A DNA stretch of 64,000 nucleotides from a virus. This document shows positions 3,472 through 63,460 of this stretch, in pieces. Within the stretch, counting starts at the first letter, position 1, and each line of letters opens with the position of its first letter. The notes beneath the pieces are model-generated. The model saw only the letters and a list, made by a program, of their open reading frames with translations, made no database searches and had not been told where the DNA came from. The stretch lies in IMG/VR virus record IMGVR_UViG_2906454065_000003, positions 1 to 64,000 of that record; one strand, written 5' to 3'. A program made the translations under genes and the position numbers.

Positions 3472-3852
3472 ATGAATATAGGAATTTTATATCTTTGTAT
3501 GAGTTTTATCTACATCCTGCTTGTTTGCTTGGATGGAGAAGATGTAAAACCGAAATGGAAACAATGGCTAGCTGACAAACTAGGCATCAAGCCAAAGATA
3601 GAGGTTAGATACATAAAGCCACAAGTCGTTAAGCTTCATTCAAGAGTTACAATGTCAAATTTTGAAATGCAATACTATTGCCGTGACAAATTTGGCATGG
3701 AGCAATTGAAGAGAAGAGCAATAGAAAGTGTGTACGATGAAATTCTTAAGGGAATGAAGGCAAACGAATTGGTTTCCATTTCGCAATATAATGACATTTA
3801 TAGTAATAACACTATTTATGAGGGGACATGTGAAATTTATAAAAACAAGTAG
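3472..3852 (+). CDS. hypothetical protein with N-terminal transmembrane segment
   Basis: Hydrophobic N-terminus ILYLCMSFIYILLVCL. The start follows the TAGCGTATG junction. Confidence 0.45.
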   Translation: MNIGILYLCMSFIYILLVCLDGEDVKPKWKQWLADKLGIKPKIEVRYIKPQVVKLHSRVTMSNFEMQYYCRDKFGMEQLKRRAIESVYDEILKGMKANELVSISQYNDIYSNNTIYEGTCEIYKNK

Positions 3853-8315: not shown

Positions 8316-8582
8316 TCATTTCCCCTCCTTTGCCCTAATCTCCAGCTCGATAGGCTTGCCGCAATGGGGGCAGATGATAGCCGGATGCGATAAGGTTTCA
8401 CCATCAATAGCAAGGAAACTAGATGGCGAGCAACCACAAATACTAGCTATTTGTTCTACTTTCGCAAATGAAATTGAGCCATTATTGATTTGTTGCGATA
8501 AAGCTGATTGGGTAATACCTAACTTTTCAGCTACAGATGAAATGGTTTGCCCATGACTCCTAATTATTTTCTTTAAGTCCAT
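8316..8582 (-). CDS. XRE-family HTH transcriptional regulator
   Basis: GQTISSVAEKLGITQSALSQ is a helix-turn-helix. A C-terminal CPHCG is present. The N-terminus is paralogous to 13913..14218. A divergent promoter region lies upstream. Confidence 0.6.
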   Translation of the reverse strand: MDLKKIIRSHGQTISSVAEKLGITQSALSQQINNGSISFAKVEQIASICGCSPSSFLAIDGETLSHPAIICPHCGKPIELEIRAKEGK

Positions 8583-8623
8583 ACCTTATTATATATAAGT
8601 GAATACTAATATTTATTATGCTG

Positions 8624-8631
8624 CAAAGATA
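8624..8631 (-). promoter_or_regulatory. -7 box (TATCTTTG, Bacteroides type) for HTH gene 8316..8582
   Basis: The reverse complement of 8624..8631 is TATCTTTG, about 45 nt upstream of the ATG. Confidence 0.45.
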
Positions 8632-8733
8632 GCTTATTTTTTTTTAACTGCCAAAGAAAAAGAGTTAAATATTAGAATTAGCTAATAATTAGTGAATAAA
8701 TGTTTAGAAATAGCTTATAAGTGTTAAATAAGT

Positions 8734-8779
8734 GGTAATATTAGAAATTTCTTATAGAAATATTTGGTAATATTAGAAA
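8734..8779. promoter_or_regulatory. two direct repeats GGTAATATTAGAAA (putative operators)
   Basis: Identical 14-mers at 8734..8747 and 8766..8779, 32 bp apart, each with a palindromic TAATATTA core. They overlap the -33 region of the + promoter. Confidence 0.4.
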
Positions 8780-8794
8780 AAACTACTATCTTTG
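8763..8794 (+). promoter_or_regulatory. Bacteroides-type promoter (-33 TTTG, -7 TATCTTTG) for 8883..9221
   Basis: TTTG at 8763..8766 and TATCTTTG at 8787..8794. Confidence 0.5.
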
Positions 8795-8850
8795 CAATGT
8801 CTTTAAGAGATAAAGGCTTTAAAGTTTAACTATTAATTGCTGCTATGCAG

Positions 8851-8874
8851 CCGAGTCGGCACTCGTAAAACGGT
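8851..8874. repeat. left arm of a perfect 24-bp inverted repeat (CCGAGTCGGCACTCGTAAAACGGT)
   Basis: Reverse complement is identical to 13617..13640. Contains the internal palindrome CGAGT-CGGC-ACTCG. Sits in the 5'UTR 9 nt before the ATG at 8883. Confidence 0.9.
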
Positions 8875-8882
8875 TTGAGGAT

Positions 8883-9221
8883 ATGACAACTTCAATTAAG
8901 AACAAGATGAGAAAGGTAATGCAGTTGGCACATAGAGCCTATCAGTTGAAATCAAGTTCAATGTCTTGGGTTGAGTGCTTGAAACAGGCTTGGCAGGTCG
9001 TAAAGCTTGAGGCAGCGATGAAGACCAAGGTAGTAGAGTTCTTCTTTATGAAGATGAATGGTGAGGTAAGACAAGCCTTTGGTACTCTCCTTCAGAGCCA
9101 CATTGACTATACTCCAAATGGTACAGGGCATGCAGCATCAAGAGATTGCATCCGCTATTGGGATGAAGCAAAGGGCGCATGGAGACAATTCAAGGCTTAC
9201 AACTTCTTGCGAGTTGCATAA
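8883..9221 (+). CDS. hypothetical protein (paralog of 13278..13613)
   Basis: 112 aa. Conserved blocks AW..KL, IV.F.F.K..G..R.AFGTL and WR.FK.N..RVA are shared with the convergent copy. Confidence 0.55.
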   Translation: MTTSIKNKMRKVMQLAHRAYQLKSSSMSWVECLKQAWQVVKLEAAMKTKVVEFFFMKMNGEVRQAFGTLLQSHIDYTPNGTGHAASRDCIRYWDEAKGAWRQFKAYNFLRVA

Positions 9222-9315
9222 AGATATATTCACGTTCTAAGGTGTTTGGCGAGGCTTAATAGGGGGTGTGCCTTTAAACACCCCTTTAGTTTAGGACTTT
9301 TAAAGTATTTGAGAT

Positions 9316-9564
9316 ATGGAGACAATTGCTAAGTGTTTGAAAGAAGTGTTCTACAAAGGGCATCATATTACCAAGGTGGAGGACGTATTCGGTCAGGTTG
9401 CCGTTCGCATTGATAATGTTGTTGAACCAGGCTATGCTAGCATAGCCGATGCAAAACGAGTAATCAATGGTAAAGCCCCTAAATGGTTTACGGATGGTTA
9501 TATGTGGGACGAAGACAGCAAGAAGGTTGTAAAAGACACTAACGCTTTTCGATGGGAGGAGTAA
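9316..9564 (+). CDS. hypothetical protein
   Basis: 82-aa ORF. Confidence 0.4.
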   Translation: METIAKCLKEVFYKGHHITKVEDVFGQVAVRIDNVVEPGYASIADAKRVINGKAPKWFTDGYMWDEDSKKVVKDTNAFRWEE

Positions 9565-9568
9565 GAAA

Positions 9569-9865
9569 ATGGATGAGAATTTCTTGAATGTGCTCTATAT
9601 CGAGCACACAGACAAAATAGGCGTTTTAAAGGACGATAAGGAAGAAAGGGTATCTATTATCCTAGGTACGGATAAAACGCTTGTAGAACGCAAGAGAGAG
9701 GGCAAAACGTACCTTCTTGTACCTTTGACAAAGAACCATACCTTTGTCTGCAAGGGTAATAGTATTGATGTGGATGGTGAGCGGTTCGATTCGGACATCT
9801 TTTTCCGCAAGGACGCTTGTCAGTGGATTGAGATTAACAAAGAAATGCTATTCAAGGTAGCGTAA
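9569..9865 (+). CDS. hypothetical protein
   Basis: 98-aa ORF starting 4 nt after the previous stop. Confidence 0.4.
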   Translation: MDENFLNVLYIEHTDKIGVLKDDKEERVSIILGTDKTLVERKREGKTYLLVPLTKNHTFVCKGNSIDVDGERFDSDIFFRKDACQWIEINKEMLFKVA

Positions 9866-9885
9866 TGAATAAGGAGGTTTAAGCG

Positions 9886-10143
9886 ATGAAAGTATATGTA
9901 GTAATATCTTCATACCAACATGGACTGGGTGAGGCAGTTGAGGTTGACGCAGAAGTTTTCTCTACCATAGATAAGGCAAGAAAGGCGATAAGGCACAAAG
10001 GAATGAACACTTTGGAGAATTACAAGCGAGTTTTGAATTGCGATGATTATCTATACAATATCTCAGATTCTTTCTTTCATATCTCAGACAGCGAAGGAGA
10101 GACGTGGGATAATTTTGATATTGTAGAACGAGAAGTAAAGTAA
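9886..10143 (+). CDS. hypothetical protein
   Basis: 85-aa ORF. Confidence 0.4.
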   Translation: MKVYVVISSYQHGLGEAVEVDAEVFSTIDKARKAIRHKGMNTLENYKRVLNCDDYLYNISDSFFHISDSEGETWDNFDIVEREVK

Positions 10144-10150
10144 TAAGACT

Positions 10151-10396
10151 ATGGATATTAAGATTATCAAAGACATCTTAGATGATGCAAAGGAGTGCGG
10201 TTGCATTGCAGGAATTTCACTCTCTAATGGGCAGTTAACTCATGCAAACTTTAGCAAATCAAAGTTATTTGATTTTACTGCCGATGTTCTTTATAACAAA
10301 AAAAAGCATTTGATAACTATACTTGGTGAGAACGGAAACAGAGATTACATTGATAGTGACTCTATCATACGTATCTTTATTAGAGAAGGTGTTTAA
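10151..10396 (+). CDS. hypothetical protein (tandem paralog of 10416..10664)
   Basis: 81 aa. N-terminus MDIKIIKDILDDAKECG and C-terminus IDSDSIIRIFIREG resemble the next ORF. Confidence 0.4.
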   Translation: MDIKIIKDILDDAKECGCIAGISLSNGQLTHANFSKSKLFDFTADVLYNKKKHLITILGENGNRDYIDSDSIIRIFIREGV

Positions 10397-10415
10397 CAAT
10401 TAATTATAGGAGAAT

Positions 10416-10664
10416 ATGGATGCAGGTCATGTGAATGTGATATTAGGCGAAGCCGAGGACAAAGGTCTTAGAGGAAGTATCAACTTGGTAGGTGGAGCAA
10501 AAATAAGTTTCGACTTCAATAGTGTTGGTGGTGAAACCTCTTTCAATTGCAATACAAAGAACAGAACACTTATGATTGGAAGTGGAAGTACAGTAGTGTT
10601 TACACGTAAATATATTGATTGTAGCTCTATCCAGTATATTGAAGTGTTTGAACGTACAAACTAA
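10416..10664 (+). CDS. hypothetical protein (tandem paralog)
   Basis: 82 aa. MDAGHVNVILGEAEDKG ... YIDCSSIQYIEVFERT. Confidence 0.4.
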   Translation: MDAGHVNVILGEAEDKGLRGSINLVGGAKISFDFNSVGGETSFNCNTKNRTLMIGSGSTVVFTRKYIDCSSIQYIEVFERTN

Positions 10665-10681
10665 TTATAGGAGACAAGAAT

Positions 10682-10966
10682 ATGAATGTACTAGACTATT
10701 ATGAGGTTGTCACCTCAAAGATTTTCAAGTTGGAAAGCATGAACGAGGGGCTTGTATTGATAGCACCGGAGCAGGAGGTGGATGGAGTCCGTTCCTTGAT
10801 GGTGGGATTATATGTGCCAGAGCATGAACGATACAAGATGTATACTTTCCGTTCCTCTATGAACGAGGGTGAACTAAGTGACAAGTACAAGGCAATGGTC
10901 TGCACGATGGATGTTCTTAAACCGGATTGGGATAGAATAAGAAAGAAAAGACGGAAGAGGTTCTAA
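10682..10966 (+). CDS. hypothetical protein
   Basis: 94-aa ORF. Confidence 0.4.
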   Translation: MNVLDYYEVVTSKIFKLESMNEGLVLIAPEQEVDGVRSLMVGLYVPEHERYKMYTFRSSMNEGELSDKYKAMVCTMDVLKPDWDRIRKKRRKRF

Positions 10967-11098
10967 CCTCTTACCGTCTGTAGGATGCAAGCTATTTCAA
11001 GATTATTTTTAGAAAACATGAAAATAAATTAGAGTTTCCTTGTATTTCTCGAAGGTTTTTGTTACCTTTGCGGATGCAAATAATAAAACAATGAGCTT

Positions 11099-11503
11099 AT
11101 GAAAGTATTATCAATTCGTCAGCCGTATGCTTGGTTAATTGCTATCGGCTGCAAGACCATTGAGAACAGAACATGGAATAGAAAGTTCCGTGGTCGTTTC
11201 CTTATTCATGCTAGCCAAGCCAAACCCGAAAAACTTGACGGATGGCAGGAGAGCGCAATGAAGAAATATTGCCAAGAGCATGGTATTGTTATTCCAGACT
11301 TCAAAGACTTGCCAACGTCAGCCATTATCGGCAGCGTAGAGTTGGATGATATTCAATTCCATGAGGCTTATCCGGATGCATTTGCTGAAGATTTCCAATA
11401 TCATTGGTTCTTGAAGAATGCTAAATTGTTCGATAAGCCGATTAGAAACGTCAAAGGCAAGTTATTCCTCTGGGATTATGAGTATAATGAAGCCGAAATG
11501 TAA
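11099..11503 (+). CDS. ASCH-domain protein
   Basis: LSIRQPYAWLIAIGCKTIENRTW...RFLIHAS matches the ASCH/PUA-like N-terminal signature common in prophages. Confidence 0.6.
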   Translation: MKVLSIRQPYAWLIAIGCKTIENRTWNRKFRGRFLIHASQAKPEKLDGWQESAMKKYCQEHGIVIPDFKDLPTSAIIGSVELDDIQFHEAYPDAFAEDFQYHWFLKNAKLFDKPIRNVKGKLFLWDYEYNEAEM

Positions 11504-11604
11504 AATAACAATACTTCTGTAATAAAAATACAAGTTATTGAAAATTAGCGCAAAAGTCTTTGTTGTTCTAAGGGTTAGATAAGATGTAAATGTAAAAATA
11601 AATA

Positions 11605-11637
11605 GAGCCTCAACCTCTAACGAGATTGGGGCTTTTA
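11605..11637. terminator. bidirectional intrinsic terminator between convergent genes
   Basis: Stem AGCCTCAA / TTGGGGCT with a 12-nt loop, flanked by a T-run on + (TTTT) and an A-run upstream. Confidence 0.5.
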
Positions 11638-11645
11638 CAGTTGTC

Positions 11646-12485
11646 TTAGTGTGTCTCACCGCTTGCAAACATATCTACTTGTTTGGATGACTTGTAGCCA
11701 ATGATTTCCAATACCTCCTCAAACTTGTTGTCATACCACTTTGGAATGGTTTGCCCAGGCACATCTTTGTAGATGTCATTCAAAGCATACACCAAACCTT
11801 TTTCGGTGACAGAATAGTACTTGTGAACCTTGCTATTTGTACCCTTTCGGGTCTTCTCTTCCAATAAGCCAGCAGCCAATGCCAGCTTATTGAATTTGAT
11901 GGCTGACAACTCAACACCACGTTCTTTCAACAATTCACTGACTGCGTGCGAAGCACCATTCGGAGCGTGGACGTAATCAGGAACCGGAACTCCATAAGGC
12001 TCTGCTATCTGGCTCACCAACTGCAAGCGTGCGGCATCACTATATCGCAACGAGTCCATTACCCAATTGGCAACCGTCAACTTGTCTTGCAAGAAACTTT
12101 GCTGAGGCTTCATTTGCTCGGCTTGCACCTGCTCACGATGCTTAATTTCCAACTCCTCCCAACGCAAAACCAACTTCGCTCTTGCCTCATCATTAAACTT
12201 GGTGGCAATGTAAAGACTCTCACGTTTGGTAAGGGAATAACAAGGACGCTCACGTCCGTTTTCATCTAAGTAAGAGCAGAGGGAAAAATTTCCCCGAGCC
12301 ACCTTAAACCATGATTCTTCCATTTTACGAATAGCTTTCATCACATCTGCGTGACGTTTATTTGCTATTGTAGCAATTTCCAACGAGGTGATTCTTTCTT
12401 CTCCATCACCTGTCATACCAGATTTCACACTGCCCGATGGGAACACTGGCGGATTCACCATCATTCGGTTTACATTTTCTGTCAT
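11646..12485 (-). CDS. phage antirepressor / Rha-KilAC-like regulatory protein
   Basis: N-terminal SLEIATIANKRHADVMKAIRK resembles the phage Rha/ORF6N regulatory domain. The C-terminal half resembles KilA-C. 279 aa. Confidence 0.5.
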   Translation of the reverse strand: MTENVNRMMVNPPVFPSGSVKSGMTGDGEERITSLEIATIANKRHADVMKAIRKMEESWFKVARGNFSLCSYLDENGRERPCYSLTKRESLYIATKFNDEARAKLVLRWEELEIKHREQVQAEQMKPQQSFLQDKLTVANWVMDSLRYSDAARLQLVSQIAEPYGVPVPDYVHAPNGASHAVSELLKERGVELSAIKFNKLALAAGLLEEKTRKGTNSKVHKYYSVTEKGLVYALNDIYKDVPGQTIPKWYDNKFEEVLEIIGYKSSKQVDMFASGETH

Positions 12486-12945
12486 AGTAACTCCAAATTT
12501 AAATTGTTAATAATTATATTTGGCTGTGGTGGAAACGAAAAGCCCCATCCGCTAAAGTCACGAGAGCGGACAGGGCTTGTGTCAACCGTCCACTTATGTA
12601 AGGCGATGAACGGAATGACAATACTCCACGCTTGGAGCAAATGAAAATATTTAATTTTAAATTTTAAAAATATGATCTATATCCTCATTAGCCGTGCTCG
12701 TGACTTCACAACCTTGTTATTTTCGGCTGCAAAGTTAATGCTTTTCTTGTTAACATGCAAACGCTTTAGTGTTTTATTTAAAATATTAACGTTTGTTTTA
12801 CTATGGAGGACTTCTGCCCTCGCCAGCACGACCAGCTATCGTGGCACGTTGCTGCACATTACTTCTTCTTTCCATTGCTCACGGAATTTAATTGTTAAAC
12901 ATCAAAGATAATGTGCAGTTGTTTCGGTGTGCCTCACGAAATCTA

Positions 12946-13245
12946 TTACAAATCACACTCGTATGAGTATTGCTTTTTCAGCTTGTTCAATGCGTTCTCG
13001 GTAACGTAGTAGATGTTATCGAAATATTCGCTTTTCTTGATGCTTCGGCTTTCTTTCAGCTCTACCTTGTGATTGAATGTCACTTCGTAGCGGTTTGCGA
13101 TGCTTGTAATCAAGAAATCAACCTCACGCTTATGTCTGTCCAGATCGGTCTCTTTATACTCACCACGCTTGATAAATGCGTCCTTGTTCGTCTCTTCGAT
13201 GTTAGCAACCATGTTGCCTTGCATCACTATAATCTTTGCGCTCAT
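12946..13245 (-). CDS. hypothetical protein
   Basis: 99-aa ORF. The overlapping + ORF 12970..13251 is less likely given the surrounding - strand genes. Confidence 0.4.
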   Translation of the reverse strand: MSAKIIVMQGNMVANIEETNKDAFIKRGEYKETDLDRHKREVDFLITSIANRYEVTFNHKVELKESRSIKKSEYFDNIYYVTENALNKLKKQYSYECDL

Positions 13246-13277
13246 ATCTAGTTTCTTTTTAAATCGTTAGAAATCTG

Positions 13278-13613
13278 TTATGCAACTCTCATAAGGTTTG
13301 CCTTCTTGAAGCAACGCCATTCTTCTTTCTCGGTATCGAAGTACACTTGGCAAGTGTCATTCATCTTGCGACCTGCACCCTGTGTAGCTGGGATAACCTT
13401 CTCGCTCAATGTGCCGAATGCCTCACGCAAGCTACCATCAACCTTCTGAAAGTAAAACTTCACGATGCGCTTCTTCATCTGACCCTTCAGCTTGATGTTC
13501 ATCCAAGCGACCTTTAAAGCCTCGCTCATTGTGTAGCCATTCTTCTTGATGAACTGCCAAGCAAGCTTCATTACCTCACTCAATGTATTTCTTAATGTAG
13601 TAGCCATAATCAC
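13278..13613 (-). CDS. hypothetical protein (paralog of 8883..9221)
   Basis: 111 aa, homologous to 8883..9221. The ATG lies 9 nt inside the right IR arm. Confidence 0.55.
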   Translation of the reverse strand: MIMATTLRNTLSEVMKLAWQFIKKNGYTMSEALKVAWMNIKLKGQMKKRIVKFYFQKVDGSLREAFGTLSEKVIPATQGAGRKMNDTCQVYFDTEKEEWRCFKKANLMRVA

Positions 13614-13616
13614 TAT

Positions 13617-13640
13617 ACCGTTTTACGAGTGCCGACTCGG
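13617..13640. repeat. right arm of the 24-bp perfect inverted repeat
   Basis: ACCGTTTTACGAGTGCCGACTCGG is the reverse complement of 8851..8874. Confidence 0.9.
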
Positions 13641-13699
13641 AGGTGCAACCTCAACTAAATTAATAATGTTATTGTGACCTTTGTTTCTTAATCACGATG

Positions 13700-13707
13700 C
13701 AAAGATA
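13700..13707 (-). promoter_or_regulatory. -7 box TATCTTTG on the - strand for 13278..13613
   Basis: The reverse complement of 13700..13707 is TATCTTTG, about 85 nt upstream of the start. Confidence 0.4.
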
Positions 13708-13829
13708 CTAAGTTCTATCCTAACTACCAAATATTTTATTAAGTTTTATCTTAACTTTAACCTTTGTTTGCTGATTTAATATACAAATTAAGAAATGTTT
13801 GCATTGTTAGGTTAAAAACTTAGTTTTTC

Positions 13830-13861
13830 ATAATAAGTTTGGCAGTTTGCGAAAATATGTG
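13830..13861 (+). promoter_or_regulatory. Bacteroides-type promoter for HTH gene 13913..14218
   Basis: TATCTTTG at 13854..13861 with TTTG(GCAGTTTG) upstream. The leader ATATATAATAAGGTATGGA is the same as the leader of the 8316..8582 gene. Confidence 0.5.
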
Positions 13862-13912
13862 TATCTTTGCAACATCAATAAAATAAAGTTAGAACTTAAT
13901 ATATAATAAGGT

Positions 13913-14218
13913 ATGGATATACGAGGCATAATTAAACGAAAAGGCTTTACGCTAACGTATGTAGCTGATAGGCTGACTAACAAAAAAGGTGGTAAGGGAG
14001 TATCTTTGCCATCCTTGATACAAACTATTGATGGGAATCCAACTGTCGCCAGTCTTCAGGAGATAGCAAGCATTATAGGTGTAACGCTTGCAGAACTAGT
14101 TTCCGAAGCTGATTGTTCAGATTTCATTGCCCTTATAAAACAAGGTGGTGAGTTGTATTCCGCATCGTCCATCGCTGAGGCTAGGGTCGTGTTGGATAAG
14201 TTGGAAAGTGTTAAGTAA
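13913..14218 (+). CDS. HTH DNA-binding regulator (XRE/Cro-like)
   Basis: MDIRGIIKRKGFTLTYVADRLT...ASLQEIASIIGVTLAELVSE. Paralogous N-terminus and leader to 8316..8582. Confidence 0.55.
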   Translation: MDIRGIIKRKGFTLTYVADRLTNKKGGKGVSLPSLIQTIDGNPTVASLQEIASIIGVTLAELVSEADCSDFIALIKQGGELYSASSIAEARVVLDKLESVK

Positions 14219-16213: not shown

Positions 16214-19200
16214 ATGGCAGAATTAAGATTCGATGTCAAAGCGAATTTCGAGGAGGTTACGAAACTTCGTTCCGAGTGCGAAAAGTTGAGGGCTGAGTTG
16301 TTGAAGACCAATAAGTCAACCGACCCAGCTATTGTTGCGGATTTGACGGAAAAATATGCAGATGCAAGCAATCGCTTAAAGGATTTAACGCAAGCAGCTT
16401 CAAGAGCCGCTTACGTGATGTCTTCTGAGTTTAATAAGAAGATGCAAGCAGCCGCAAGGGAAGTTTATAGCTATGAACTTCAAATGCAAGCTACCAAAGA
16501 CCGAATAGAAAAAATCCAACAGCAAATCACGAACAAGAGATTAACTCTTGGAGTAACTACGGATAAGTCATCCATAGAGTCTTTGCAGAAGAATATTGAC
16601 TATTTGAAAGGTTCTTTGGCAGGTCAAACTGCGCAATTAAAGAACTTAGAAGGAGGTGCTGTCGGTGCTCGTCAGACCTTGGAGAATATGCGGAATGAGT
16701 ATGTTTTGTATGCAGGTTCAGCAAATCCGGCAAAAGAGGCAACAAATATGTTGACCGATAGCATGAGCCAAATGATAGAACGTATGAAGGCCGCTCCAAC
16801 TGCCGGAGAAGGAATGACTAGTTTGTTCCAAAGAGTTACTGGCGATGCTCACATGCTTTCGGCAACATTACTTGGTGGCTTGGGATTTGAACAACTGGCA
16901 GGTAGTATTTTTAATACTCGTTCTCAATTCCAGCAACTTGAAATATCTTTCAATACCATGCTTGGTAGTGCGGATAAGTCCAAACAATTGATGGACGAAC
17001 TTATCCAAACGGCAGCTCATACACCTTTCGATATGTCCAGCATTACGGGTGGCGCAAAACAACTTTTGGCATATGGAACGGAAGCGAAAGATGTTAACAA
17101 AACCCTTGTCCAACTTGGTGACATTGCTTCGGGCTTGAACATTCCGCTTGGAGACCTTGTTTATCTTTATGGAACGACCGTTTCGCAAGGAAGAATGTTT
17201 ACAATGGATTTGCGTCAGTTCATGGGTAGAGGTGTCCCATTAGCAGAAGAATTGGGTAAAATCTTACACCAAAACACAACGGAGGTTCAAGAGTCTGTTT
17301 CCAAGGGTAAAGTGACATCAGACATCTTCAAGGAAGCTATCGCCAACATGACGCAAGCAGGTGGACGCTTCGGAGGCTTGATGGAACAACAATCAAAGAC
17401 CTTTGAGGGTCAGTGGAGCAATATTGGTGACTCCATCCAGCAGATGTTCAACGAAATCGGCAAAAAATCCGAGGGCGTGTTCTCTAGTGGATTGTCAATT
17501 ATTTCTGCTATGGTAGAGAATTGGCAAGAGGTAATAAAAGTTATTGGCGTAGCTACAGTAGCCGTTGGTTCTTATCGTGCATCATTAATGGCGGCTGCTT
17601 CTATTCGCAAAGCAGAGGAAGCGCAACAAGCCGATGATATGATGAAGGGAATTGATGCTGAAATCAAGCGTTTGCAAGACCTAGAGAACTCAAACTACAA
17701 GTCGCTGGGTAAGGACAAAAAGCAAGAGCGAGTAAGCAAACAACAAGACTTGGCAAGTATTGTTGGAGATACTGCTGTGTCCGATGACTTTGTAAAGGCA
17801 AGGTTAGATGCAGCCGAGCAAGAGGGCGTTATTTCGGCACAAATGCGTTCCCAACTAGAGACGAAACGTGAACTTTTACAGGCTCAGCAACAAGCAACAG
17901 CACAAAGCCAGATAGAACTTGATGAAGAAAAAAGAAAGACCGAGGAACTTCGTCAACAAAAAATAGAGTCTCTTAAAGATGATTTGAAGACTACTACGGA
18001 GAAAATATCAAATCTTGATGATAGGGATGTAGAGTTGGCTAGACAATATACATCAGCTTTGAATGATTTACAAGATGCCCAAGATGCCTTTGCTGAGGCT
18101 CAAAAATTGGTTGAGGAAACTGCTGGTGGCGCAAACTTGGCTTTTGATGCAGAGGGTAATGCCGTGAATGCGCTAGAAGCAAAAGAACGTTTGGAAACGG
18201 CAACAAAACAAGTGAATGCTGCTCAAACAAAGATTTCGACCATTGAAAGCGAACGTAAGACGATTGCTCAAACAAAGGAGAATTTAAGTAAGCAACAGGC
18301 TACGATACAAAATAATATTAACACTGTTTCTCAAGCTTCCAATACCACTGCAAAGAAAGCTGGGATATTGGCGACAACAACAGCCACTATCAAAAATGCG
18401 CTTTATGCAGCAGGTACAAAATATACGACTACGGTAGTTAATCTTTTTTCTAGTGCGGTAAGAAGTAGTGGAAATGCCTTGAAGAGTTTATGGGCGGCAA
18501 TGGCTGCTAATCCGATAGGTGCATTGATAACACTGGGAACAACTTTGTATTCCGTATTTTCTATGTTTGGAGACGAGACTGAAGAAATTTCGGCAGATAC
18601 AACACATTTTGGGGAAACAACAAGTTTGACCAGTAAAAAGGTTGAGACATTGATGAATGTGTTGAGAAATACGAATGAAAGTACTGATGCACATAAAAAA
18701 GCAAAAGATGAACTTATTGGGGTATATGAACAATATGGAATAAAATGCGACAATGAAAAGGATAATTTGGAAACGTTGAAAAATAAGCATGACGCTTTTA
18801 TTGCTTCTTTACAATTAGAAAATGCTGAACGAGAAAAAGCTAACGCTTTGATGTCTATATCTTCTCAATATGAGGAAGCAAGGAAAAACCTAGATAAGGA
18901 TTTTTCTGATTCACTAGGTGGTAGTTGGCTTGATTTCGGACAACATATTGATAAAGAAGACATATCAGCTGTACAGATGATGTTTAATTCACTTGTTTCT
19001 GATGATGCGTTGACTAAGATAGACTCTTTAAGGCAGAAAATGGATTCCGCAAAGAAAGGAACATTGGAATATGCTAATGCCGCACAAGAATACGATGCTG
19101 ATCTTCGCAACCTGTTAGTTCCTTTTGAGGAATGGGGTAAGAAGATGGGGTACAATAGTTTCGTGATGGCAAGTTTGCGAAGTTCGATATTAAAGCATAT

Positions 19201-22200
19201 AGATAGTATAAACTCTTTGAATGAAAGTTACAAAAAGGCAGAGGACGCAATATATAAAGGAAGCACAGCGACTGTTGATTGGAATAACTCCCAAGCAAAG
19301 GCTCGTTGGATAGTAAACAAGAACAAGCAATCAATCCAAGAATTGGTAGAGCAAACTGATAATCTTATCAATTTATGGAATAAAGAATATGGGTTGAATT
19401 TAAAAATTCATTATGATGATTCGGAAATTCCAAATTGGATGAAATCTATGACAACGAAGGAGTTGCGAAATTTAATTTCAAGGAGAGAGGCGGATATTTT
19501 ACAACAGGAAAATCACGAAAAGAAAACTGGGCATAAGTTGGTAACACGTTCAGGAGGTAAGTTTAGGTCAAGAACGGAAAACCAAACGGATGTCGCAATG
19601 GCGAAATCTATAATTCAATCACGTACACCAAAGAGTAGTACAACAACAAAATCAAATACAACCCATACTACTCCAAAGAAAACAGGTACAACGGATGACC
19701 CACAAGCAAGAGCGTATGAACGCAAGAAGGCTGAGGAGGACTATTCCAAGTCTATTTCATCCTATTCGGAGAAAGCTATCCAAGATATGACCAAAAATCG
19801 CATCAATGCGATGAATGAGGGCTATAGCAAGGAATTGGCTCAGATTACCGAGAATGCCGACAAGGAGAGAAAGGCGGTAGAAGAAGGTATAGACAAATTG
19901 GTTGAGGCTAGAAAAAAACGTGACCAAGCTGTTTGGGTTAATTCCGGCAAGGGTCGTAAGGCTAATATGTGGAAACAGAGCAAAACCAATGAAGAGTACA
20001 AGAATGAGGTTTTGAATGAAACCATGAAGGATAGCAAGGGTAATCCGGTTAAGGTCAATGGTATGAATATGACCATAGGCATGAGTGTTGCTAATCAGAT
20101 GAATGCAATTCGGGATAAGGCGGTAAAGCAGAATGAGGATGTGCTTGCTAAAGAAGCGCAAAGCATGTACGATTATCTGAAGACTTATGGCACATACCAG
20201 GAGCAGAAGTTAGCTATTGCTGCCGATTATGCTAAGAGGATTAGCGAGGTTGAAAACTCTACGGATTCGGACTCAAGCAAGCAATGGAAGATAAAGTCTT
20301 TGAAAGAAGAGCAGAAGAAAGAGACGGATTCGGTTGAGGCTAGTGCTATTATGCAGAAGATAGACTGGTATCAAGTCTTCGGAAATGTTGGTGGCATTAT
20401 GAAAGATGTGCTTGTTCCTTTATTGGCAGATCTGGATAAGTTCGTAGGTACGGATAAGTTCCAAAATTTGGGTGCAGACCAGCAGAAGAGTATCGTTGAT
20501 GCTATGCAGAATATCCGTAATTCGATTGGCAATACAAGTGATTTAGGTTGGAAAGACCTTGCAAGGGATGTTGTAGCTTATCAGGATGCTCTGAAGAATG
20601 CGAAAGTTGCACAAGATGAATACACGAAAACGGAAACTTTGCTTATACCTCGTATTAAGGTTTTGCAAGAACAGATTGAGAATGCGAAAAAGTCGGGCAA
20701 TGTTGCAGAGCAAACAAGGCTACAAGAAGAATTGAATAAAGTTCAAGGTCAGTTAGCGGAGTCCGGAAAGAAGATTGTTACGGCTAACACAAAAGTTCGT
20801 ACTAGTGGTCAGAAGTTGGCTCAAACGACACAGAATGTGACACAACCGATTTCTGCTATCCATGAGTTCCTTTCTACTTCTGGACTATCCGATTTGGCAT
20901 CTCTTTGGGATAGTTTTGACCAACTTAAAGGTGGAATTGACGGATTGAAAGCTTTAAAGGAGGCTAAAAATGCGGCTGACGGACTGAAGGATATGGGTAA
21001 GGAAGCCGCAGATGCTGCCGCAGATGCTGGCAAGAAAGCTGGTGATGCACTAAGTGAAGGATTGTCAAAAGCTGGACTAATAGGTCAAATCGTATCTGCC
21101 ATCTTGAAGATACTTGATGTTTTGAAAGATGGTATTGGAACATTGATTAGTAGCTTGATTGATACAGTTCTGAATGCGGTCAACGGCATATTAAAGAATA
21201 TTCTAAGTGGCGATTTTATAACTCAGATTGGAGGGTCTTTGGTAAGCGGCATTGGTAATATTCTCAATACTATATCGTTTGGTGGATTCAATAGTTTGTT
21301 TGGAGTTGGTGGAAACGCAAAAGAAGTAAACCGGACTATAGATAAATTGACGGATAGAAATGAAATCTTGACGGATGCTATAGACAAGTTACGAGACTCC
21401 ATAGACAAGAATAGTGGTATTAAAGCCGTAGAGGATGCTAAAAAAGCCGAAAACCTCCAAAAGGAGAAAGAACAAAATTTAAAGAGTATCATGGAGGCGC
21501 AAATGGGTTATCATGGCTCTCATCACAGTTTTAACGCTTATTTCCGAGGATTTTCGCAAGAGCAAATCAAAAAGGTGTCCGATGCAATAGGCAGACAATG
21601 GAATGGTAATCTTAACGACTTGCAATCTGCTGATGAAGCAGCTGCCATTTTGCAGAATCCAGATATGGTTGAGGCTATCAAGAATACAGGTAAGGGTGGC
21701 TATGGAGGTAGAGTTCTTGAAAAGTTGAAAGACTATGCGGCTGAGGCTGGAACATTAGAGGAAATTGCTGATGACCTTGCAGAAAGCTTGACGCAAATAT
21801 CTTTTGATAGTTTGAAGAGCGAGTTCATAGATACTTTGATGGATATGAATTCCTCTGCTCAAGACTTCTCTGATAATTTCTCCAAGATGCTTATGCAAGC
21901 CGTTCTGAAAGCTAAGGTGGATGATTTGTTGGGAAATGATATGCAAGCATTCTATGACGAATGGGCGGAACGAGCTGAGGCAAATGGTGGTAAATTGTCA
22001 AAGACAGATATAACTGCCTTGAAGGGAAAGTATGATGAAATGGTTCAAGAAGGACTGAAGATTAGAGATGAAGTAGCCGAAATAACGGGTTACAAGCAAT
22101 CTTACGAGCAGTCCGCTTCTTCCGGTTCATTTGAGTCTATGAGCCAAGACACAGGCGATGAGTTGAATGGTCGTTTCACAGCGGTACAAATTGCCACAGA

Positions 22201-24028: not shown

Positions 24029-24083
24029 TTTCGTGCCTACATATATAATAAGCGTTAAAATATAAAAGAAACACATTAAATAA

Positions 24084-24115
24084 CTTGCATATTTCAAATA
24101 TTCTTTGTATCTTTG
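24084..24115 (+). promoter_or_regulatory. Bacteroides-type promoter (repeated cassette copy)
   Basis: CTTGCATATTTCAAATATTCTTTGTATCTTTG, with the -7 box at 24108..24115. About 93% identical over about 115 bp to 44948..45062. Confidence 0.55.
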
Positions 24116-24152
24116 CATTGTAATTAAGAAATAAAGGTTACTAATTAAAAAT

Positions 24153-24176
24153 GGTGAGACACACCATAAAAACTGT
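24153..24176 (+). promoter_or_regulatory. hairpin motif copy a (GGTGAGACACACC-ATAAA-AACTGT)
   Basis: Stem GGTG / CACC, loop AGACA. Sits in the 5' leader of ORF 24185..24406. Confidence 0.5.
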
Positions 24177-24184
24177 GATTCGTT

Positions 24185-24406
24185 ATGAATACTAGATTGA
24201 GTAAGAAAGAGACAATGGTTTATGGCAACATCGAAGTGATGGCTGATGTAATTGGTGGTAACAAGTACTTTACATTTGCTGAGTTGTATGATTTCGATTT
24301 GGATAATACCAAGGATGAGTTGAAAGAAATTTTAAACTCTTTGACTGAGAAAGGTTACTTGAAGAGTTTTAATGATTTCGATAAAACTTATCGAGTTTTG
24401 AAGTAA
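24185..24406 (+). CDS. hypothetical protein
   Basis: 73-aa ORF downstream of the promoter and hairpin motif. Confidence 0.45.
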   Translation: MNTRLSKKETMVYGNIEVMADVIGGNKYFTFAELYDFDLDNTKDELKEILNSLTEKGYLKSFNDFDKTYRVLK

Positions 24407-24451
24407 GAACAACAAAGGGGATATGAAATCCCCTTACAATATAAATTTAGA

Positions 24452-24474
24452 GCGTGAGACACACGTAAAACTGT
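24452..24474 (+). promoter_or_regulatory. hairpin motif copy b (GCGTGAGACACACG-TAAAACTGT)
   Basis: Stem CGTG / CACG. The outer pair is swapped relative to copy a (G-C to C-G), which is compensatory. Confidence 0.5.
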
Positions 24475-24572
24475 ATTGAAACAATGAAAAAGGTATTCAC
24501 AATTGAGAATGCGTTAGCGTTTTTATTTGCTCTTGAAATAGTATCATTAATATTTTTTCTAGGATAGGGCTT

Positions 24573-44826: not shown

Positions 44827-44966
44827 CCCAAAGGCAAAATACCATTTGGTGTTTACCCCATCACTATATATAATAATGTAGTGGTGGGGATTTTTGTGTT
44901 AACGTCAGCAAATTATTTGTTTGTATTATTATAGAGTGTTAAAAGCTATAAGAAATACATTAAATA

Positions 44967-45002
44967 ACTTGCATATTTCGAATATTCTTTGTATCTTTGC
45001 AT
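44967..45002 (+). promoter_or_regulatory. Bacteroides-type promoter (repeated cassette copy)
   Basis: ACTTGCATATTTCGAATATTCTTTGTATCTTTGCATCG, with the -7 box at 44992..44999. Confidence 0.55.
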
Positions 45003-45037
45003 CGTAATTAAGAAATAAAGGTTACTAATTTTAAAAA

Positions 45038-45061
45038 GGTGAGACACACCACAAAAACTGT
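45038..45061 (+). promoter_or_regulatory. hairpin motif copy c (GGTGAGACACACC-ACAAA-AACTGT)
   Basis: Identical stem-loop to copy a, sitting in the leader of ORF 45071. Confidence 0.5.
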
Positions 45062-45070
45062 AAGAAGAAA

Positions 45071-45445
45071 GTGGAAAAGTTTTTTGAAAACTTATCTGAA
45101 AAGTTTAATGATGCGGCTTTTGAGGCGCAACTTGATGATTTTACTTGCGAGTTTGATGCTATTAACAAACCTGCTGAAATCGTGGTGTCCGTTAAGAGTA
45201 GAAAGGTTATCCATTCATATGGAAATATTTCTTCTTATCCATATTACAATGTAGATAAGATTAATATCTATAATGAAGACGGAGAAGACGTTTCTTCAAA
45301 ATATCCTTTGTTCTGCCAAAGAGTTAAGGATTGCGTGCCTTCTTATAAAGATGTAGAGAATGACTTGACGGAGGCAAATATGAGCGATACCGAGCTTTAT
45401 TTCGGCTCAGAGGCTAATTATTTGCATTACAAGTATGGTAACTAA
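45071..45445 (+). CDS. hypothetical protein
   Basis: 124-aa ORF. Confidence 0.45.
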   Translation: MEKFFENLSEKFNDAAFEAQLDDFTCEFDAINKPAEIVVSVKSRKVIHSYGNISSYPYYNVDKINIYNEDGEDVSSKYPLFCQRVKDCVPSYKDVENDLTEANMSDTELYFGSEANYLHYKYGN

Positions 45446-62094: not shown

Positions 62095-62180
62095 TTCACA
62101 AATAATATGAAATCACTTTTGTTACTATATAGGAATGCACAAGTCTTATGCATAACAAAAGCCAATATAAAAATGACCTT

Positions 62181-62204
62181 ACAGTTTTTATGGTGTGTCT
62201 CACC
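62181..62204 (-). promoter_or_regulatory. hairpin motif copy d (- strand) upstream of helicase gene
   Basis: The reverse complement reads GGTGAGACACACC-ATAAA-AACTGT, about 75-100 nt upstream of the helicase ATG at 62094. Confidence 0.5.
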
Positions 62205-62288
62205 AAGACGATTGCAAAGGTACGAAGAATAATTTAATAATGCAAACAATTTAGTGTATATTATTAATGCAGTAACATTATTTAAACC

Positions 62289-62849: not shown

Positions 62850-62922
62850 TTGCTGCTGTGGGGGTCGAACCCACAACCTTTTTCCGATTTGGGCGGACGT
62901 TCTACCATTGAACTAAGCAGCA
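62850..62922 (-). tRNA. tRNA gene, anticodon arm irregular (candidate anticodon CAA)
   Basis: The reverse complement folds with acceptor TGCTGCT / AGCAGCA, D arm GTTC-AATGGTA-GAAC and T arm GTGGG-TTCGACC-CCCAC. The anticodon region GTCCG-CCCAAAT-CGGAA has only 4 bp plus a G.A, and position 26 is missing. Confidence 0.55.
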
Positions 62923-62975
62923 CCACCCCATAGGGGGATTTCAAACTAATTAAATAATAAGAAAAATGAAAAGCC

Positions 62976-63434: not shown

Positions 63435-63460
63435 ATTCTTTCTTTTTATGTTAGAGAATG

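What the first reader, a model, noticed from the sequence alone, without database searches (positions are those of the whole stretch)
8316..14218. Mirror-symmetric regulatory cassette: paralogous HTH regulators outside, paralogous genes inside, perfect 24-bp inverted repeat in both 5'UTRs
The layout is HTH(-) 8316..8582 | promoter | geneA(+) 8883 ... geneA'(-) 13613 | promoter | HTH(+) 13913. The two HTH genes share their leader (ATATATAATAAGGTATGGA) and N-terminus. GeneA and geneA' are only distantly similar proteins, yet their 5'UTRs carry an identical 24-mer (CCGAGTCGGCACTCGTAAAACGGT, at 8851..8874 and as reverse complement at 13617..13640). The 24-mer contains its own hairpin CGAGT-CGGC-ACTCG. 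Perfect DNA conservation beside diverged coding sequence implies selection on the UTR element: an operator, an RNA hairpin, or a recombination site. The interior holds an antirepressor (Rha/KilAC-like), an ASCH protein and a bidirectional terminator at the exact centre (11605..11637). Three readings are possible: an inverted duplication of an immunity module, an invertible segment with the IRs as crossover sites, or a dual genetic switch.
Basis: seen in the sequence. Interest (0 to 1): 0.7.

Follow-up and report, generated by a model that had tools for sequence, protein, structure and literature searches.

The report
Shared hairpin leader of phage operons
The identical 24-base sequence in front of two facing phage operons is most likely not a DNA flip-switch but the core of a small folded RNA leader, placed just before start codons, that recurs about seven times in this gut-bacteria phage and in many other gut phages and is absent from the RNA family catalogue.

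Summary
CCGAGTCGGCACTCGTAAAACGGT occurs exactly twice (8851-8874 +, 13617-13640 -), 8-9 nt before the start codons of two WYL_2/DUF2693 paralogues (40% identical). Each lies downstream of a canonical Bacteroidota promoter and faces a divergent HTH gene. The two HTH-promoter-leader-WYL_2 modules are an old inverted duplication.

The 24-mer is a sense-strand RNA element: a hairpin (CGAG-UCGGCA-CUCG) plus a UAAAACGGU tail, preceded by a second hairpin whose sequence differs between the arms but still pairs. Relatives show compensatory changes in both stems. A covariance model built without the two copies still finds them. The model and a motif scan together place related copies at 24153, 24453, 45038, 62204(-) and 11660(-). 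The same motif precedes unrelated genes in many gut-phage contigs. Rfam has no match.

No inversion isomers appear: 0 of about 108 geneA junctions carry the right-hand leader, interiors are never inverted, and no recombinase was found. Instead the element marks a mosaic joint where promoter and gene modules are exchanged. The HTH proteins probably act on separate, arm-specific repeats.

The likeliest function is control of translation initiation on mRNAs that lack a Shine-Dalgarno sequence. The mechanism is untested.

The parts
8316..8582 (-). HTH1, Cro/C1-type regulator (88 aa, C-terminal CxxC zinc-ribbon-like tail)
   Evidence: Pfam HTH_3 30 bits, HTH_26 28 bits; PHROG repressor families
8624..8631 (-). 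-7 box (TATCTTTG) of the HTH1 promoter; -33 TTTG about 20 nt upstream
   Evidence: Regex TTTG-N18-22-TAnnTTTG; conserved block in the alignment of the two IGRs
8668..8779 (+). Left-arm-specific repeats: TTAGAAWTWGCTWATA x3 and GGTAATATTAGAAA x2. The last copy lies between the -33 and -7 boxes of P_A. Candidate HTH1 operators
   Evidence: the repeat finder; no equivalent sequence in the right IGR
8763..8794 (+). Promoter of geneA: -33 TTTG (8763-8766), 20-nt spacer, -7 TATCTTTG (8787-8794)
   Evidence: both boxes are invariant between the two arms
8804..8816 (+). Leader box UAAGAGAUAAAGG. This box type occurs 4 times in the window, always after a -7 box
   Evidence: alignment A10
8839..8851 (+). 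Hairpin H1 (GCUGC-UAU-GCAGC), directly abutting H2
   Evidence: Local fold; pairs covary with the right arm and with relatives
8852..8874 (+). Hairpin H2 (CGAG-UCGGCA-CUCG) plus tail UAAAACGGU; the core of the 24-mer. AUG at 8883
   Evidence: found by model R2 at E = 3e-6 although not used to build it
8883..9221 (+). geneA, WYL_2 (DUF2693) protein, 112 aa
   Evidence: PF10902 61.5 bits; phrog_1086
9316..11503 (+). Remainder of the left operon: six small ORFs, then ASCH (11099-11503), which has its own -7-like box upstream
   Evidence: synteny in relatives
11605..11634 (.). Hairpin that folds on both strands; probable bidirectional terminator between the convergent operons
   Evidence: z -2.7 and -2.9
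11635..11660 (-). Motif copy GGUG-AGACA-CACU + AAGACAACUGU overlapping the Rha stop codon, just before the terminator
   Evidence: Regex scan; weak partial R2 hit
11646..12485 (-). Rha-type antirepressor-like gene
   Evidence: PF09669 70.5 bits; PHROG Ant/Rha families
12486..12737 (-). Internal promoter (-7 box 12730-12737) and 240-nt strongly structured leader of Rha, with a terminator-like hairpin at 12540-12578
12946..13245 (-). DUF5517-like small gene, second gene of the right operon
   Evidence: weak, 19 bits; moves together with geneA' in relatives
13278..13607 (-). geneA', WYL_2 paralogue (109 aa from the ATG at 13607)
   Evidence: PF10902 84.7 bits; 40% identical to geneA
13617..13652 (-). 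Right-arm element: tail + H2 (13617-13639) and H1 (GAGGU-UGC-ACCUC, 13640-13652)
13677..13731 (-). Leader box UAAGAAACAAAGG (13677-13690) and geneA' promoter (-7 box 13700-13707, -33 TTTG about 13728-13731)
13705..13902 (+). Right-arm-specific repeats TAYTAAGTTYTATCYTAACT x2 plus an inverted copy; candidate HTH2 operators
13838..13869 (+). Promoter of HTH2 (-33 TTTG, -7 TATCTTTG at 13862-13869)
13913..14218 (+). HTH2, distant paralogue of HTH1
24108..24187 (+). Third promoter/leader cassette: -7 box, UAAGAAAUAAAGG, GGUG-AGACA-CACC, AUAAAAACUGU, 8 nt, AUG at 24185
   Evidence: (E = 2e-5)
24445..24486 (+). Intercistronic motif copy CGUG-AGACA-CACG UAAAACUGU, 9 nt, AUG at 24485
   Evidence: E = 1e-13
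44992..45073 (+). Fourth promoter/leader cassette with GGUG-AGACA-CACC ACAAAAACUGU, 9 nt, GUG at 45071
   Evidence: (E = 4e-4)
62172..62222 (-). Promoter (-7 box ending at 62215) followed after 10 nt by GGUG-AGACA-CACC AUAAAAACUGU; no start codon at the usual distance
   Evidence: (E = 0.09)

Best explanation
The 24-mer is the core of a cis-acting element in the mRNA leader, read on the sense strand. It is a short hairpin (5'-NGNG / loop WGRCA or UCGGCA / CNCN-3') followed by a single-stranded A-rich tail, UAAAAC(G/U)GU. In these two leaders a second, abutting hairpin precedes it; that hairpin keeps its pairing but not its sequence. The tail ends 8-9 nt before the start codon, which puts the A-run at about -17 to -13.

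The element is the downstream half of a roughly 100-nt promoter/leader cassette: Bacteroidota -33/-7 promoter, a UAAGAAAYAAAGG box, the hairpin, the tail, then the AUG. The phage uses this cassette at least four times.

The most likely role is control of translation initiation on mRNAs that lack a Shine-Dalgarno sequence. The element could be a structured boundary that keeps the A-rich ribosome landing site open, an operator for an RNA-binding regulator, or both. For the two WYL_2-led operons the Sm-like WYL_2 product is one candidate regulator.

Because the element is identical in otherwise diverged leaders, it also serves as a joint for homologous recombination, at which promoter/HTH modules and gene modules are swapped among related phages.

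Transcriptional control of the two convergent operons is probably exerted separately, by HTH1 and HTH2 on their own arm-specific repeats.

Shown: the anatomy, covariation, copy number, distribution and mosaic junctions. Inferred: that the element acts as RNA. Hypothesised: the translational mechanism and the trans-acting factor.
For: 1. Canonical TTTG-N20-TAnnTTTG promoters lie 55-60 nt upstream on both arms, and their boxes are conserved between the arms. The element is therefore transcribed.
2. H1 differs at 3 of 5 pairs between the arms yet pairs in both. Across 18 distinct relatives 99.4% of cells are paired, and 0/500 shuffles reach the covariation score.
3. H2 shows A-U, U-A and G-C at stem position 3 and C-G, G-C and U-G at position 1 across 39 distinct copies, 99.4% paired. 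About 16 distinct sequences have sense-strand G-U pairs, against 2 with A-C mismatches. This favours RNA of the coding strand over duplex DNA.
4. Within this one genome the stems differ (CGAG, GGUG, CGUG) while the loop and tail are kept.
5. All copies point the same way as the downstream gene. The tail-to-start spacing is 8-9 nt (7-10 overall) in front of more than 15 unrelated proteins, whereas the promoter-to-hairpin distance varies from 10 to 60 nt.
6. Model R2, built only from pentaloop copies elsewhere, recovers both 24-mer copies (E = 3e-6 and 1.6e-5) and three or four more in the window. A regex scan finds 7 copies against 0.04 expected.
7. In Bacteroidota an A-run at -14 to -11 enhances initiation, and mRNA structure tunes it (PMC6847099).
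8. Mosaic joints: U0-A 49, U0-A' 20, U1-A' 11, U1-B 26, U1-A2 5. Gene maps show A-g82 replaced by A'-DUF5517 in an otherwise collinear operon.
9. In 80 loci chosen by protein similarity alone, 75 carry the exact 24-mer. The 5 variants keep the pairing.
Against: - There is no transcript, structure-probing or translation data. The fold energies of the short leaders are not better than shuffles (z about 0).
- Much of the covariation comes from a few lineages of related phages, and the CM-fitted alignments lean towards the model structure.
- Two window copies do not sit at a start codon (62204(-) and 11660(-), the latter at an operon end). This fits a processing, stability or antitermination role at least as well.
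- About 75 distant WYL_2 genes in Bacteroidales genomes lack the motif, and the motif precedes many non-WYL_2 genes. Autoregulation by WYL_2 therefore has only local support.
- The same motif appears in tandem triplets in phage contigs that use a Shine-Dalgarno sequence. A role specific to SD-less translation does not explain this.
Confidence: 0.55

Rival explanations
1. Processive antitermination signal, like lambda nutL/nutR or the twin-hairpin putL/putR RNAs of HK022. The leader hairpins, alone or with a phage protein such as the basic N-terminal helix plus Sm-like barrel of WYL_2, modify RNA polymerase so that it reads through internal terminators of the two operons.
For: - The same element lies in the leaders of both operons of a mirror-symmetric regulatory region, and the first gene downstream is a small putative nucleic-acid binder.
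- Two abutting hairpins resemble the put architecture (put architecture from my own knowledge).
- A strong terminator-like hairpin (12540-12578, -26 kcal/mol) sits inside the right operon upstream of Rha.
- Copies also occur away from start codons (62204(-), 11660(-)).
Against: - The strict 8-9 nt spacing to start codons across unrelated genes is not expected for nut or put sites.
- There is no boxA-like consensus.
- The hairpins are far smaller than put RNAs.
- Rha has its own promoter at 12730-12737, so read-through is not required.
- There are many copies per genome, including intercistronic ones.
Confidence: 0.13
2. RNA processing or stability site. An endoribonuclease cuts next to the hairpin, leaving an upstream fragment protected by a 3' hairpin and a downstream mRNA with a short A-rich leader. 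Alternatively the hairpin simply protects mRNA ends.
For: - Copies occur between cistrons (24445-24486, after a terminator-like hairpin) and at the 3' end of Rha (11660(-)).
- One copy sits 10 nt from the -7 box, which is near the expected 5' end of its transcript (62204(-)).
- There are tandem triplets before highly expressed scaffold and capsid genes in other phages.
Against: - No nuclease candidate was identified.
- The conserved loop and tail, with fixed spacing to the AUG, are equally explained by a translational role.
- No data on RNA ends are available.
Confidence: 0.15
3. Duplex-DNA protein-binding site: an operator for one of the HTH proteins, or an oriented multi-copy silencing site like the stoperators of mycobacteriophage L5.
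For: - H2 is palindromic in DNA.
- The motif is multi-copy, intergenic and oriented with transcription, as stoperators are (stoperator properties from my own knowledge).
- HTH regulators flank the cassette.
Against: - The element is identical on both arms although HTH1 and HTH2 share only about 30% of residues and each IGR has its own repeat set at the promoters.
- Stem sequences vary within one genome while pairing is kept, and G-U pairs occur only on the sense strand.
- H1 has unrelated sequences in the two arms.
- The site lies at about +50 to +75, far from the promoter boxes.
Confidence: 0.08
4. Invertible segment. The two 24-mers are crossover sites for a site-specific recombinase that flips 8875-13616 and swaps which promoter drives which operon.
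For: A perfect 24-bp inverted repeat flanks a 4.7-kb segment. The combination of left-type leader with geneA' exists in relatives (20 junctions).
Against: - The reciprocal product (right-type leader + geneA) is absent in 49 + 59 geneA junctions (the two sets overlap in contigs).
- In U0-A' genomes only the first two genes are replaced, and the rest of the operon keeps its order and strand.
- No serine or tyrosine recombinase was found among 30 ORFs scanned.
- The same motif occurs as single, directly oriented copies elsewhere.
- Inversion would exchange two similar promoters, with little effect.
Confidence: 0.03
5. No function of its own. The identity is maintained only by repeated recombination or gene conversion between the arms and among co-infecting phages.
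For: The element sits exactly at mosaic joints. Most relatives are very close, with 75 of 80 identical.
Against: - A 24-nt conversion tract bounded by diverged sequence on both sides is unlikely.
- Variants keep the pairing through compensatory changes.
- Distant phages with no detectable gene similarity in the fragments held carry the same loop, tail and spacing.
Confidence: 0.05

Closest known systems
PeSL (promoter-early stem-loop) regulatory cassettes of T4-type phages (PMC2839356, PMC4122927)
   Same: Both are short composite regulatory cassettes (early-type promoter plus stem-loop) repeated in one genome. Both sit at the borders of variable small-gene modules and act as points of homologous exchange between otherwise unrelated sequences.
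   Different: In PeSLs the stem-loop is the terminator of the preceding gene and lies upstream of the promoter. Here the hairpin lies downstream of the promoter, in the leader, at a fixed distance from the start codon, and it has a conserved loop and tail. There is no sequence relationship, and the host phylum and promoter type differ.
Lambda nutL/nutR (boxA-boxB) and HK022 putL/putR antitermination RNAs
   Same: Near-identical small RNA hairpin elements sit in the leaders of both operons of a symmetric phage regulatory region. In put, two adjacent hairpins act in cis.
   Different: There is no boxA or GNRA-like boxB consensus. The hairpins are only 4-5 bp. The operons are convergent, not divergent. 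Spacing to the AUG is strict, and there are many further copies in front of other genes. Antitermination is untested.
Translational operators of phage global repressors (e.g. T4 RegA sites, consensus AAAAUUGUUAUGUAA; from my own knowledge)
   Same: Both are multi-copy, A/U-rich, UGU-containing sites next to the start codons of many early genes. One relative even reads UAAAAUUGU (L195).
   Different: RegA sites overlap the AUG and need no hairpin. No RegA homologue is known here. The resemblance is recalled, not tested.
Rfam DUF2693-FD RNA (RF02926)
   Same: It is associated with the same protein family (DUF2693 = WYL_2) in Bacteroidales.
   Different: It is a 49-nt three-way-junction small RNA found downstream of the gene (L207, L214). 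It has no match in the window and is a different RNA.
Stoperators of cluster A mycobacteriophages
   Same: Both are asymmetric multi-copy intergenic sites in a single orientation relative to transcription.
   Different: Stoperators are duplex-DNA repressor sites without hairpin covariation. Here the stems covary, with G-U pairs on the sense strand.

Membership tests
Pfam WYL_2 / DUF2693 (PF10902), for geneA and geneA' | Whole-protein HMM score above the curated cut-off of 26.7 bits | tested here: met
   61.5 and 84.7 bits; both also match phrog_1086
Rfam DUF2693-FD RNA (RF02926) | Covariance-model score of at least 44.5 bits (three-way junction, 49 nt) | tested here: not met
   No hit at gathering threshold in the window, nor at E<=10 in either leader. 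Positive controls score 71.5 and 68.3 bits in L207 and L214, downstream of the gene
Any Rfam 15 family | A match to one of 4227 covariance models over the leader element | tested here: not met
   Only noise hits at E<=10; the same holds for the tandem-array relative L275
Invertible DNA segment (invertase or shufflon type) | Inverted repeats flank the segment | tested here: met
   24/24 nt, arms 4742 nt apart
Invertible DNA segment (invertase or shufflon type) | A site-specific recombinase is encoded nearby | tested here: not met
   No resolvase, invertase or integrase domain in 10 cassette ORFs and 20 larger ORFs of the window. Small ORFs and the genome outside the window were not scanned
Invertible DNA segment (invertase or shufflon type) | Both orientations exist in populations (reciprocal junctions) | tested here: not met
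   0 U1-geneA junctions among 49 + 59 (overlapping sets); interior gene order never inverted. Read-level heterogeneity cannot be tested with these tools
Lambda-type nut site | boxA consensus (CGCUCUUA-like) plus a boxB hairpin with a GNRA-like pentaloop | tested here: not met
   The sequence shows loops UCGGCA or AGACA and the tail UAAAACNGU, with no boxA-like block. The consensus is from my own knowledge
Lambda-type nut / HK022 put site | Confers terminator read-through on downstream terminators | not testable with these tools
   Terminator-like hairpins exist at 12540-12578 and 11605-11634, but no functional data are available
PeSL-type mobile regulatory cassette | A multi-copy composite of promoter and stem-loop within one phage genome | tested here: met
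   Four cassettes share the -7 box, the UAAGARAYAAAGG box and the hairpin-tail. The order of the parts differs from T4 PeSLs
PeSL-type mobile regulatory cassette | Located at the boundaries of swapped or inserted gene modules | tested here: met
   Leader types and first-gene types are recombined. A-g82 is exchanged for A'-DUF5517, and the B gene is inserted directly after the element
Structured cis-regulatory RNA (generic criterion) | Base pairs maintained by compensatory substitutions across homologues | tested here: met
   H1: 2 pairs with double changes, plus a C-G / U-G / U-A series. H2: pairs 1 and 3 have three pair types each. More than 99% of cells are paired, and slid controls give 5-76%. 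Caveat: the sequences are related and alignment A9 was fitted to the model

The most novel reading that the evidence does not exclude
The hairpin-plus-tail motif (NGNG-WGRCA-CNCN, then UAAAAC(U/G)GU, 8-9 nt before the start codon) is an undescribed, widespread class of phage mRNA leader signal. On this reading it is a portable translation-initiation or regulatory module that gut Bacteroidota phages, and some other gut phages, place in front of many genes. A dedicated phage or host RNA-binding factor would recognise it, and it would double as the recombination joint that drives shuffling of early-gene modules.
Probability: 0.35. Interest if true: 0.7.

Novelty: new member of a known kind. Interest (0 to 1): 0.5.

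Why it matters
Bacteroidota do not use Shine-Dalgarno pairing, and how their phages set translation levels is largely unknown. This work turns up a compact element of about 40 nt, repeated within a genome, at a fixed distance from start codons in many gut-phage contigs and absent from Rfam. That gives a concrete and easily mutated handle on the question. It is also a candidate portable expression part for Bacteroides and Prevotella engineering.

The finding further shows, in a phage group outside the T4-likes, that a conserved regulatory element marks the joints at which small early-gene modules are exchanged. For annotation, it explains why a perfect inverted repeat here should not be called an inverton.

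Tried and rejected
- **Rfam.** The whole window at gathering threshold gave only 7 tRNAs. Both leaders at E<=10 gave noise (ARRPOF, preQ1-II and similar). I expected a 'DUF2693 RNA' upstream motif from memory, but the only such family found, DUF2693-FD, lies downstream of the gene and is unrelated.
- **Thermodynamics.** Folding of the leaders is not better than shuffles, so the case rests on comparison with relatives.
- **BLASTP of HTH1 against HTH2.** No hit. This was superseded by the shuffle test and by intermediates that hit both proteins.
- **MAFFT alignments of mixed loop and tail lengths (A3, A5, A6).** These misplace gaps and could not carry one structure. I used subsets and CM-based realignment instead.
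- **PDB sequence search with geneA.** Nothing meaningful.
- **Literature searches** for DUF2693, WYL_2 and the motif strings. Nothing relevant; the string hits were chikungunya virus primers.
- **Shared trans-factor.** tblastn of all window ORFs against motif-bearing loci of other lineages found no common protein, but only fragments of 15 kb or less were available.
- **Loop-tail pseudoknot.** A 3-bp pairing (UCG:CGG, variant UGG:CCG) is possible by eye. It is too short and was not tested, so I set it aside.
- **Chance resemblances.** Similarity to the SpCas9 tracrRNA 3' hairpin (CCGAGUCGG) and to the CRISPR repeat handle AUUGAAAC in one copy was judged coincidental.
- **Not done.** I did not run structure prediction of WYL_2. 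It could not decide among the RNA-level models.

Full report
**1. Observation**

The 24-mer CCGAGTCGGCACTCGTAAAACGGT is present exactly twice in the 64-kb window, at 8851-8874(+) and 13617-13640(-). There are no further matches at up to 3 mismatches, and none in 100 shuffles. It ends 8 nt before the ATG of geneA (8883). It ends 9 nt before the ATG at 13607 that I take as the true start of geneA', since the listed GTG at 13613 adds two residues.

- Both genes are Pfam WYL_2 (PF10902, the former DUF2693) and are 40% identical.
- The outer genes are HTH proteins. BLASTP sees no similarity between them. A local alignment scores 71 against 25.9+-4.7 for shuffles (0/1000), and homologues in relatives hit both (L063, L195). 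They are therefore distant paralogues.
- Rha (PF09669) and ASCH (PF04266) are confirmed.
- The hairpin at 11605-11634 folds on both strands. It lies about 360 nt to the right of the symmetry centre.

**2. The two arms are an old inverted duplication with footprint-like conservation**

With the 24-mer excluded, the left intergenic region and the reverse complement of the right one share 177 of about 270 positions (z = 9.6). The invariant islands are as follows:

- the HTH leader ACCTTATTATATAT;
- the -7 and -33 boxes of the HTH promoters;
- the -33 TTTG and -7 TATCTTTG boxes of the inward promoters, spaced by 20 nt as in the Bacteroidota consensus (consensus from my own knowledge);
- a box TAAGA(G/A)A(T/C)AAAGG just after the -7 box;
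- the 24-mer.

Each region also has its own repeat set: TTAGAAWTWGCTWATA and GGTAATATTAGAAA on the left, TAYTAAGTTYTATCYTAACT on the right. These repeats overlap the promoters and are the natural candidates for HTH1 and HTH2 operators. A site that is identical on both arms is a poor candidate for two such different proteins.

**3. The 24-mer is part of a folded RNA**

Directly upstream of the H2 hairpin (CGAGU-CGGC-ACUCG) lies a second hairpin, H1. It reads GCUGC-UAU-GCAGC on the left and GAGGU-UGC-ACCUC on the right. Three of its five pairs are changed on both sides.

In 80 loci retrieved by WYL_2 protein similarity alone, 75 carry the exact 24-mer. The five variants keep the pairing:

- C to U at the closing pair of H1, giving a G-U pair;
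- CGUGU...ACACG in H2 together with GAGGC...GCCUC in H1;
- a one-base loop deletion with tail ACCGU.

Further variants are CGGGU-GGC-ACCCG and GGUG-AGACA-CACC (L195).

On 18 distinct sequences 99.4% of cells pair, 0/500 shuffles reach the covariation score, and slid controls give 18-59% pairing. G-U pairs occur on the sense strand in many sequences, while A-C mismatches are rare. The non-palindromic tail always faces the gene.

**4. It is one subtype of a multi-copy motif**

A pattern that fixes only the 3' half of H2 and the tail, and excludes the main type, was run against viral contigs. It returned many contigs in which the unspecified 5' half completes a hairpin: CGUG-AG(A/G)CA-CACG + UAAAACUGU + 8-9 nt + AUG. 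These sit in front of unrelated genes, often 20-30 nt after a -7 box. Some phage contigs that use a Shine-Dalgarno sequence carry tandem triplets before scaffold and capsid genes.

In the window the motif also occurs at:

- 24153(+);
- 24453(+);
- 45038(+);
- 62204(-);
- 11660(-);
- a degenerate copy near 12938(-).

A regex scan counts 7 copies against 0.04 expected.

Covariance model R2 was built from ten pentaloop copies and excluded both 24-mer copies. It still finds them at E = 3e-6 and 1.6e-5, and finds the others at E from 1e-13 to 0.09. Over 39 distinct hits the stem is 99.4% paired. Pairs 2 and 4 are invariant G-C, and pairs 1 and 3 each show three pair types.

The box UAAGARAYAAAGG occurs exactly four times in the window. 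Each occurrence follows a -7 box and precedes the hairpin motif. The phage therefore carries at least four copies of a promoter/leader cassette.

The motif is absent from 427 kb around distant WYL_2 genes in Bacteroidales genomes, except in a Segatella copri MAG contig that is this same phage type. Rfam 15 has no match. DUF2693-FD is a different RNA that lies downstream of the gene.

**5. Not an inverton but a recombination joint**

I classified 116 junctions by leader type (U0 left-like, U1 right-like) and by first gene. The first-gene types are A, A' and A2, which are WYL_2 paralogues, and B, a 60-aa ORF inserted ahead of A2. The counts were:

| Junction | Count |
|---|---|
| U0-A | 49 |
| U1-B | 26 |
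| U0-A' | 20 |
| U1-A' | 11 |
| U1-A2 | 5 |
| U1-A | 0 |

All 59 protein-selected A genes also have U0 leaders; this set overlaps the first in contigs. In U0-A' genomes only A-g82 is replaced by A'-DUF5517, and the rest of the operon through ASCH keeps its order and strand. The convergent two-copy arrangement, 5-7 kb apart, is conserved. No recombinase domain was found in 30 ORFs. Inversion is therefore not supported at assembly level. Homologous exchange at the conserved leader is supported. This parallels the PeSL cassettes of T4-type phages (PMC2839356, PMC4122927).

**6. Mechanism**

The constant 8-9 nt distance to the start codon, against a variable distance to the promoter, ties the element to translation initiation. 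It places the A-run at about -17 to -13. That is next to the -14 to -11 A-rich determinant of initiation in Bacteroidota, where mRNA structure also tunes initiation (PMC6847099).

I therefore favour a translational role: a structured boundary for the ribosome landing site, an operator for an RNA-binding regulator, or both. WYL_2 is a local candidate regulator.

The copies at 62204(-) and 11660(-), the tandem arrays, and the terminator-like hairpin inside the right operon keep antitermination and processing/stability models open.

**7. Context and verdict**

The window is phage DNA: tape measure protein at 16214-22477, major capsid protein, RtcB, a helicase, methylases and 7 tRNAs. It is 95.7% identical over 74% of the cassette to an unannotated human-gut phage record. 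The promoters, and the Segatella copri MAG contig that carries the same cassette, point to a Bacteroidota host, probably Segatella or Prevotella; that contig could be a phage sequence binned with the MAG.

The inverted-duplication and RNA-hairpin readings are right. The inverton and operator readings are not supported. The added value is a previously uncatalogued, widespread phage leader motif.

Noticed in passing
window 12486-12737 (-): A separate promoter (-7 box 12730-12737) drives a 240-nt, GC-rich leader upstream of the Rha antirepressor gene. The leader is very stably folded (-66.6 kcal/mol, z = -4.8) and includes a terminator-like hairpin at 12540-12578. It looks like an attenuator or an unknown regulatory RNA. 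Rfam gives only noise.
   Followed up: partly
window 24060-24187 and 44944-45073 (+): Two nearly identical promoter/leader cassettes lie 21 kb apart, each in front of a different small gene. They share sequence from about -60 through the UAAGAAAUAAAGG box and the GGUG-AGACA-CACC hairpin.
   Followed up: partly
L275 1600-1726, L284, L287 (IMG/VR contigs of 20-30 kb): Tandem arrays of three hairpins, each with an AGACA loop and an AACUGU tail but a different stem, sit between a terminator and the Shine-Dalgarno site of a scaffold-protein gene followed by the capsid gene. These phages appear not to infect Bacteroidota. The middle unit is identical over 21 nt to the window copy at 24454.
   Followed up: partly
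L207 3989-4037, L214 3592-3640: The Rfam DUF2693-FD RNA lies 260-660 nt downstream of WYL_2 genes in Bacteroides genomes. tRNA or tmRNA genes occur within 1-2 kb of several of these WYL_2 loci, which suggests prophages integrated at tRNA genes.
   Followed up: no
L198, L201, L209, L210, L214, L249, L252, L259 (upstream of the WYL_2 start): Distant WYL_2 genes in Bacteroides genomes share a different conserved leader, AAUAGUAUAAACAUAUUAAAAUACACGAUUAUGAGCAC. Many WYL_2 leaders in Bacteroidales also begin with AUUAAGAAA right after the -7 box.
   Followed up: no
relatives such as L049 334-513 and L031 8735-8914: A 60-aa ORF (B, MTTSMIRRNL..., no family hit) is inserted between the leader element and the A2-type WYL_2 gene. 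It begins with the same four codons (MTTS) as geneA, so the exchange point lies just inside the coding sequence.
   Followed up: partly
window 29632-30066 (+) and 62850-63534 (-): There are seven tRNA genes, five in a cluster and two on the other strand. The window also encodes RtcB RNA ligase (52646-53851), an amidoligase and a GATase-like protein, a typical tRNA-repair and counter-defence repertoire.
   Followed up: no
window 63066-63106 (-) and about 12920-12945 (-): Weak or degenerate extra copies of the hairpin-tail motif: UGAG...CUCG UAAGAAUGU (E = 0.065), and GUG-AGGCA-CAC GAAACAACUGC just after the DUF5517 stop codon. The latter is better conserved in L199 at 3662-3702.
   Followed up: no
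L195 5736-5768 (-): A DUF805b RNA (RF02914, 45.7 bits) is found in a Bacteroidaceae contig that also carries two variants of the leader element.
   Followed up: no
L196 (record title Waltera intestinalis MAG): A contig with Bacteroidota-type leader elements and the WYL_2/DUF5517/Rha gene set is binned in a Firmicutes MAG. This is probably a binning error for a phage contig.
   Followed up: no
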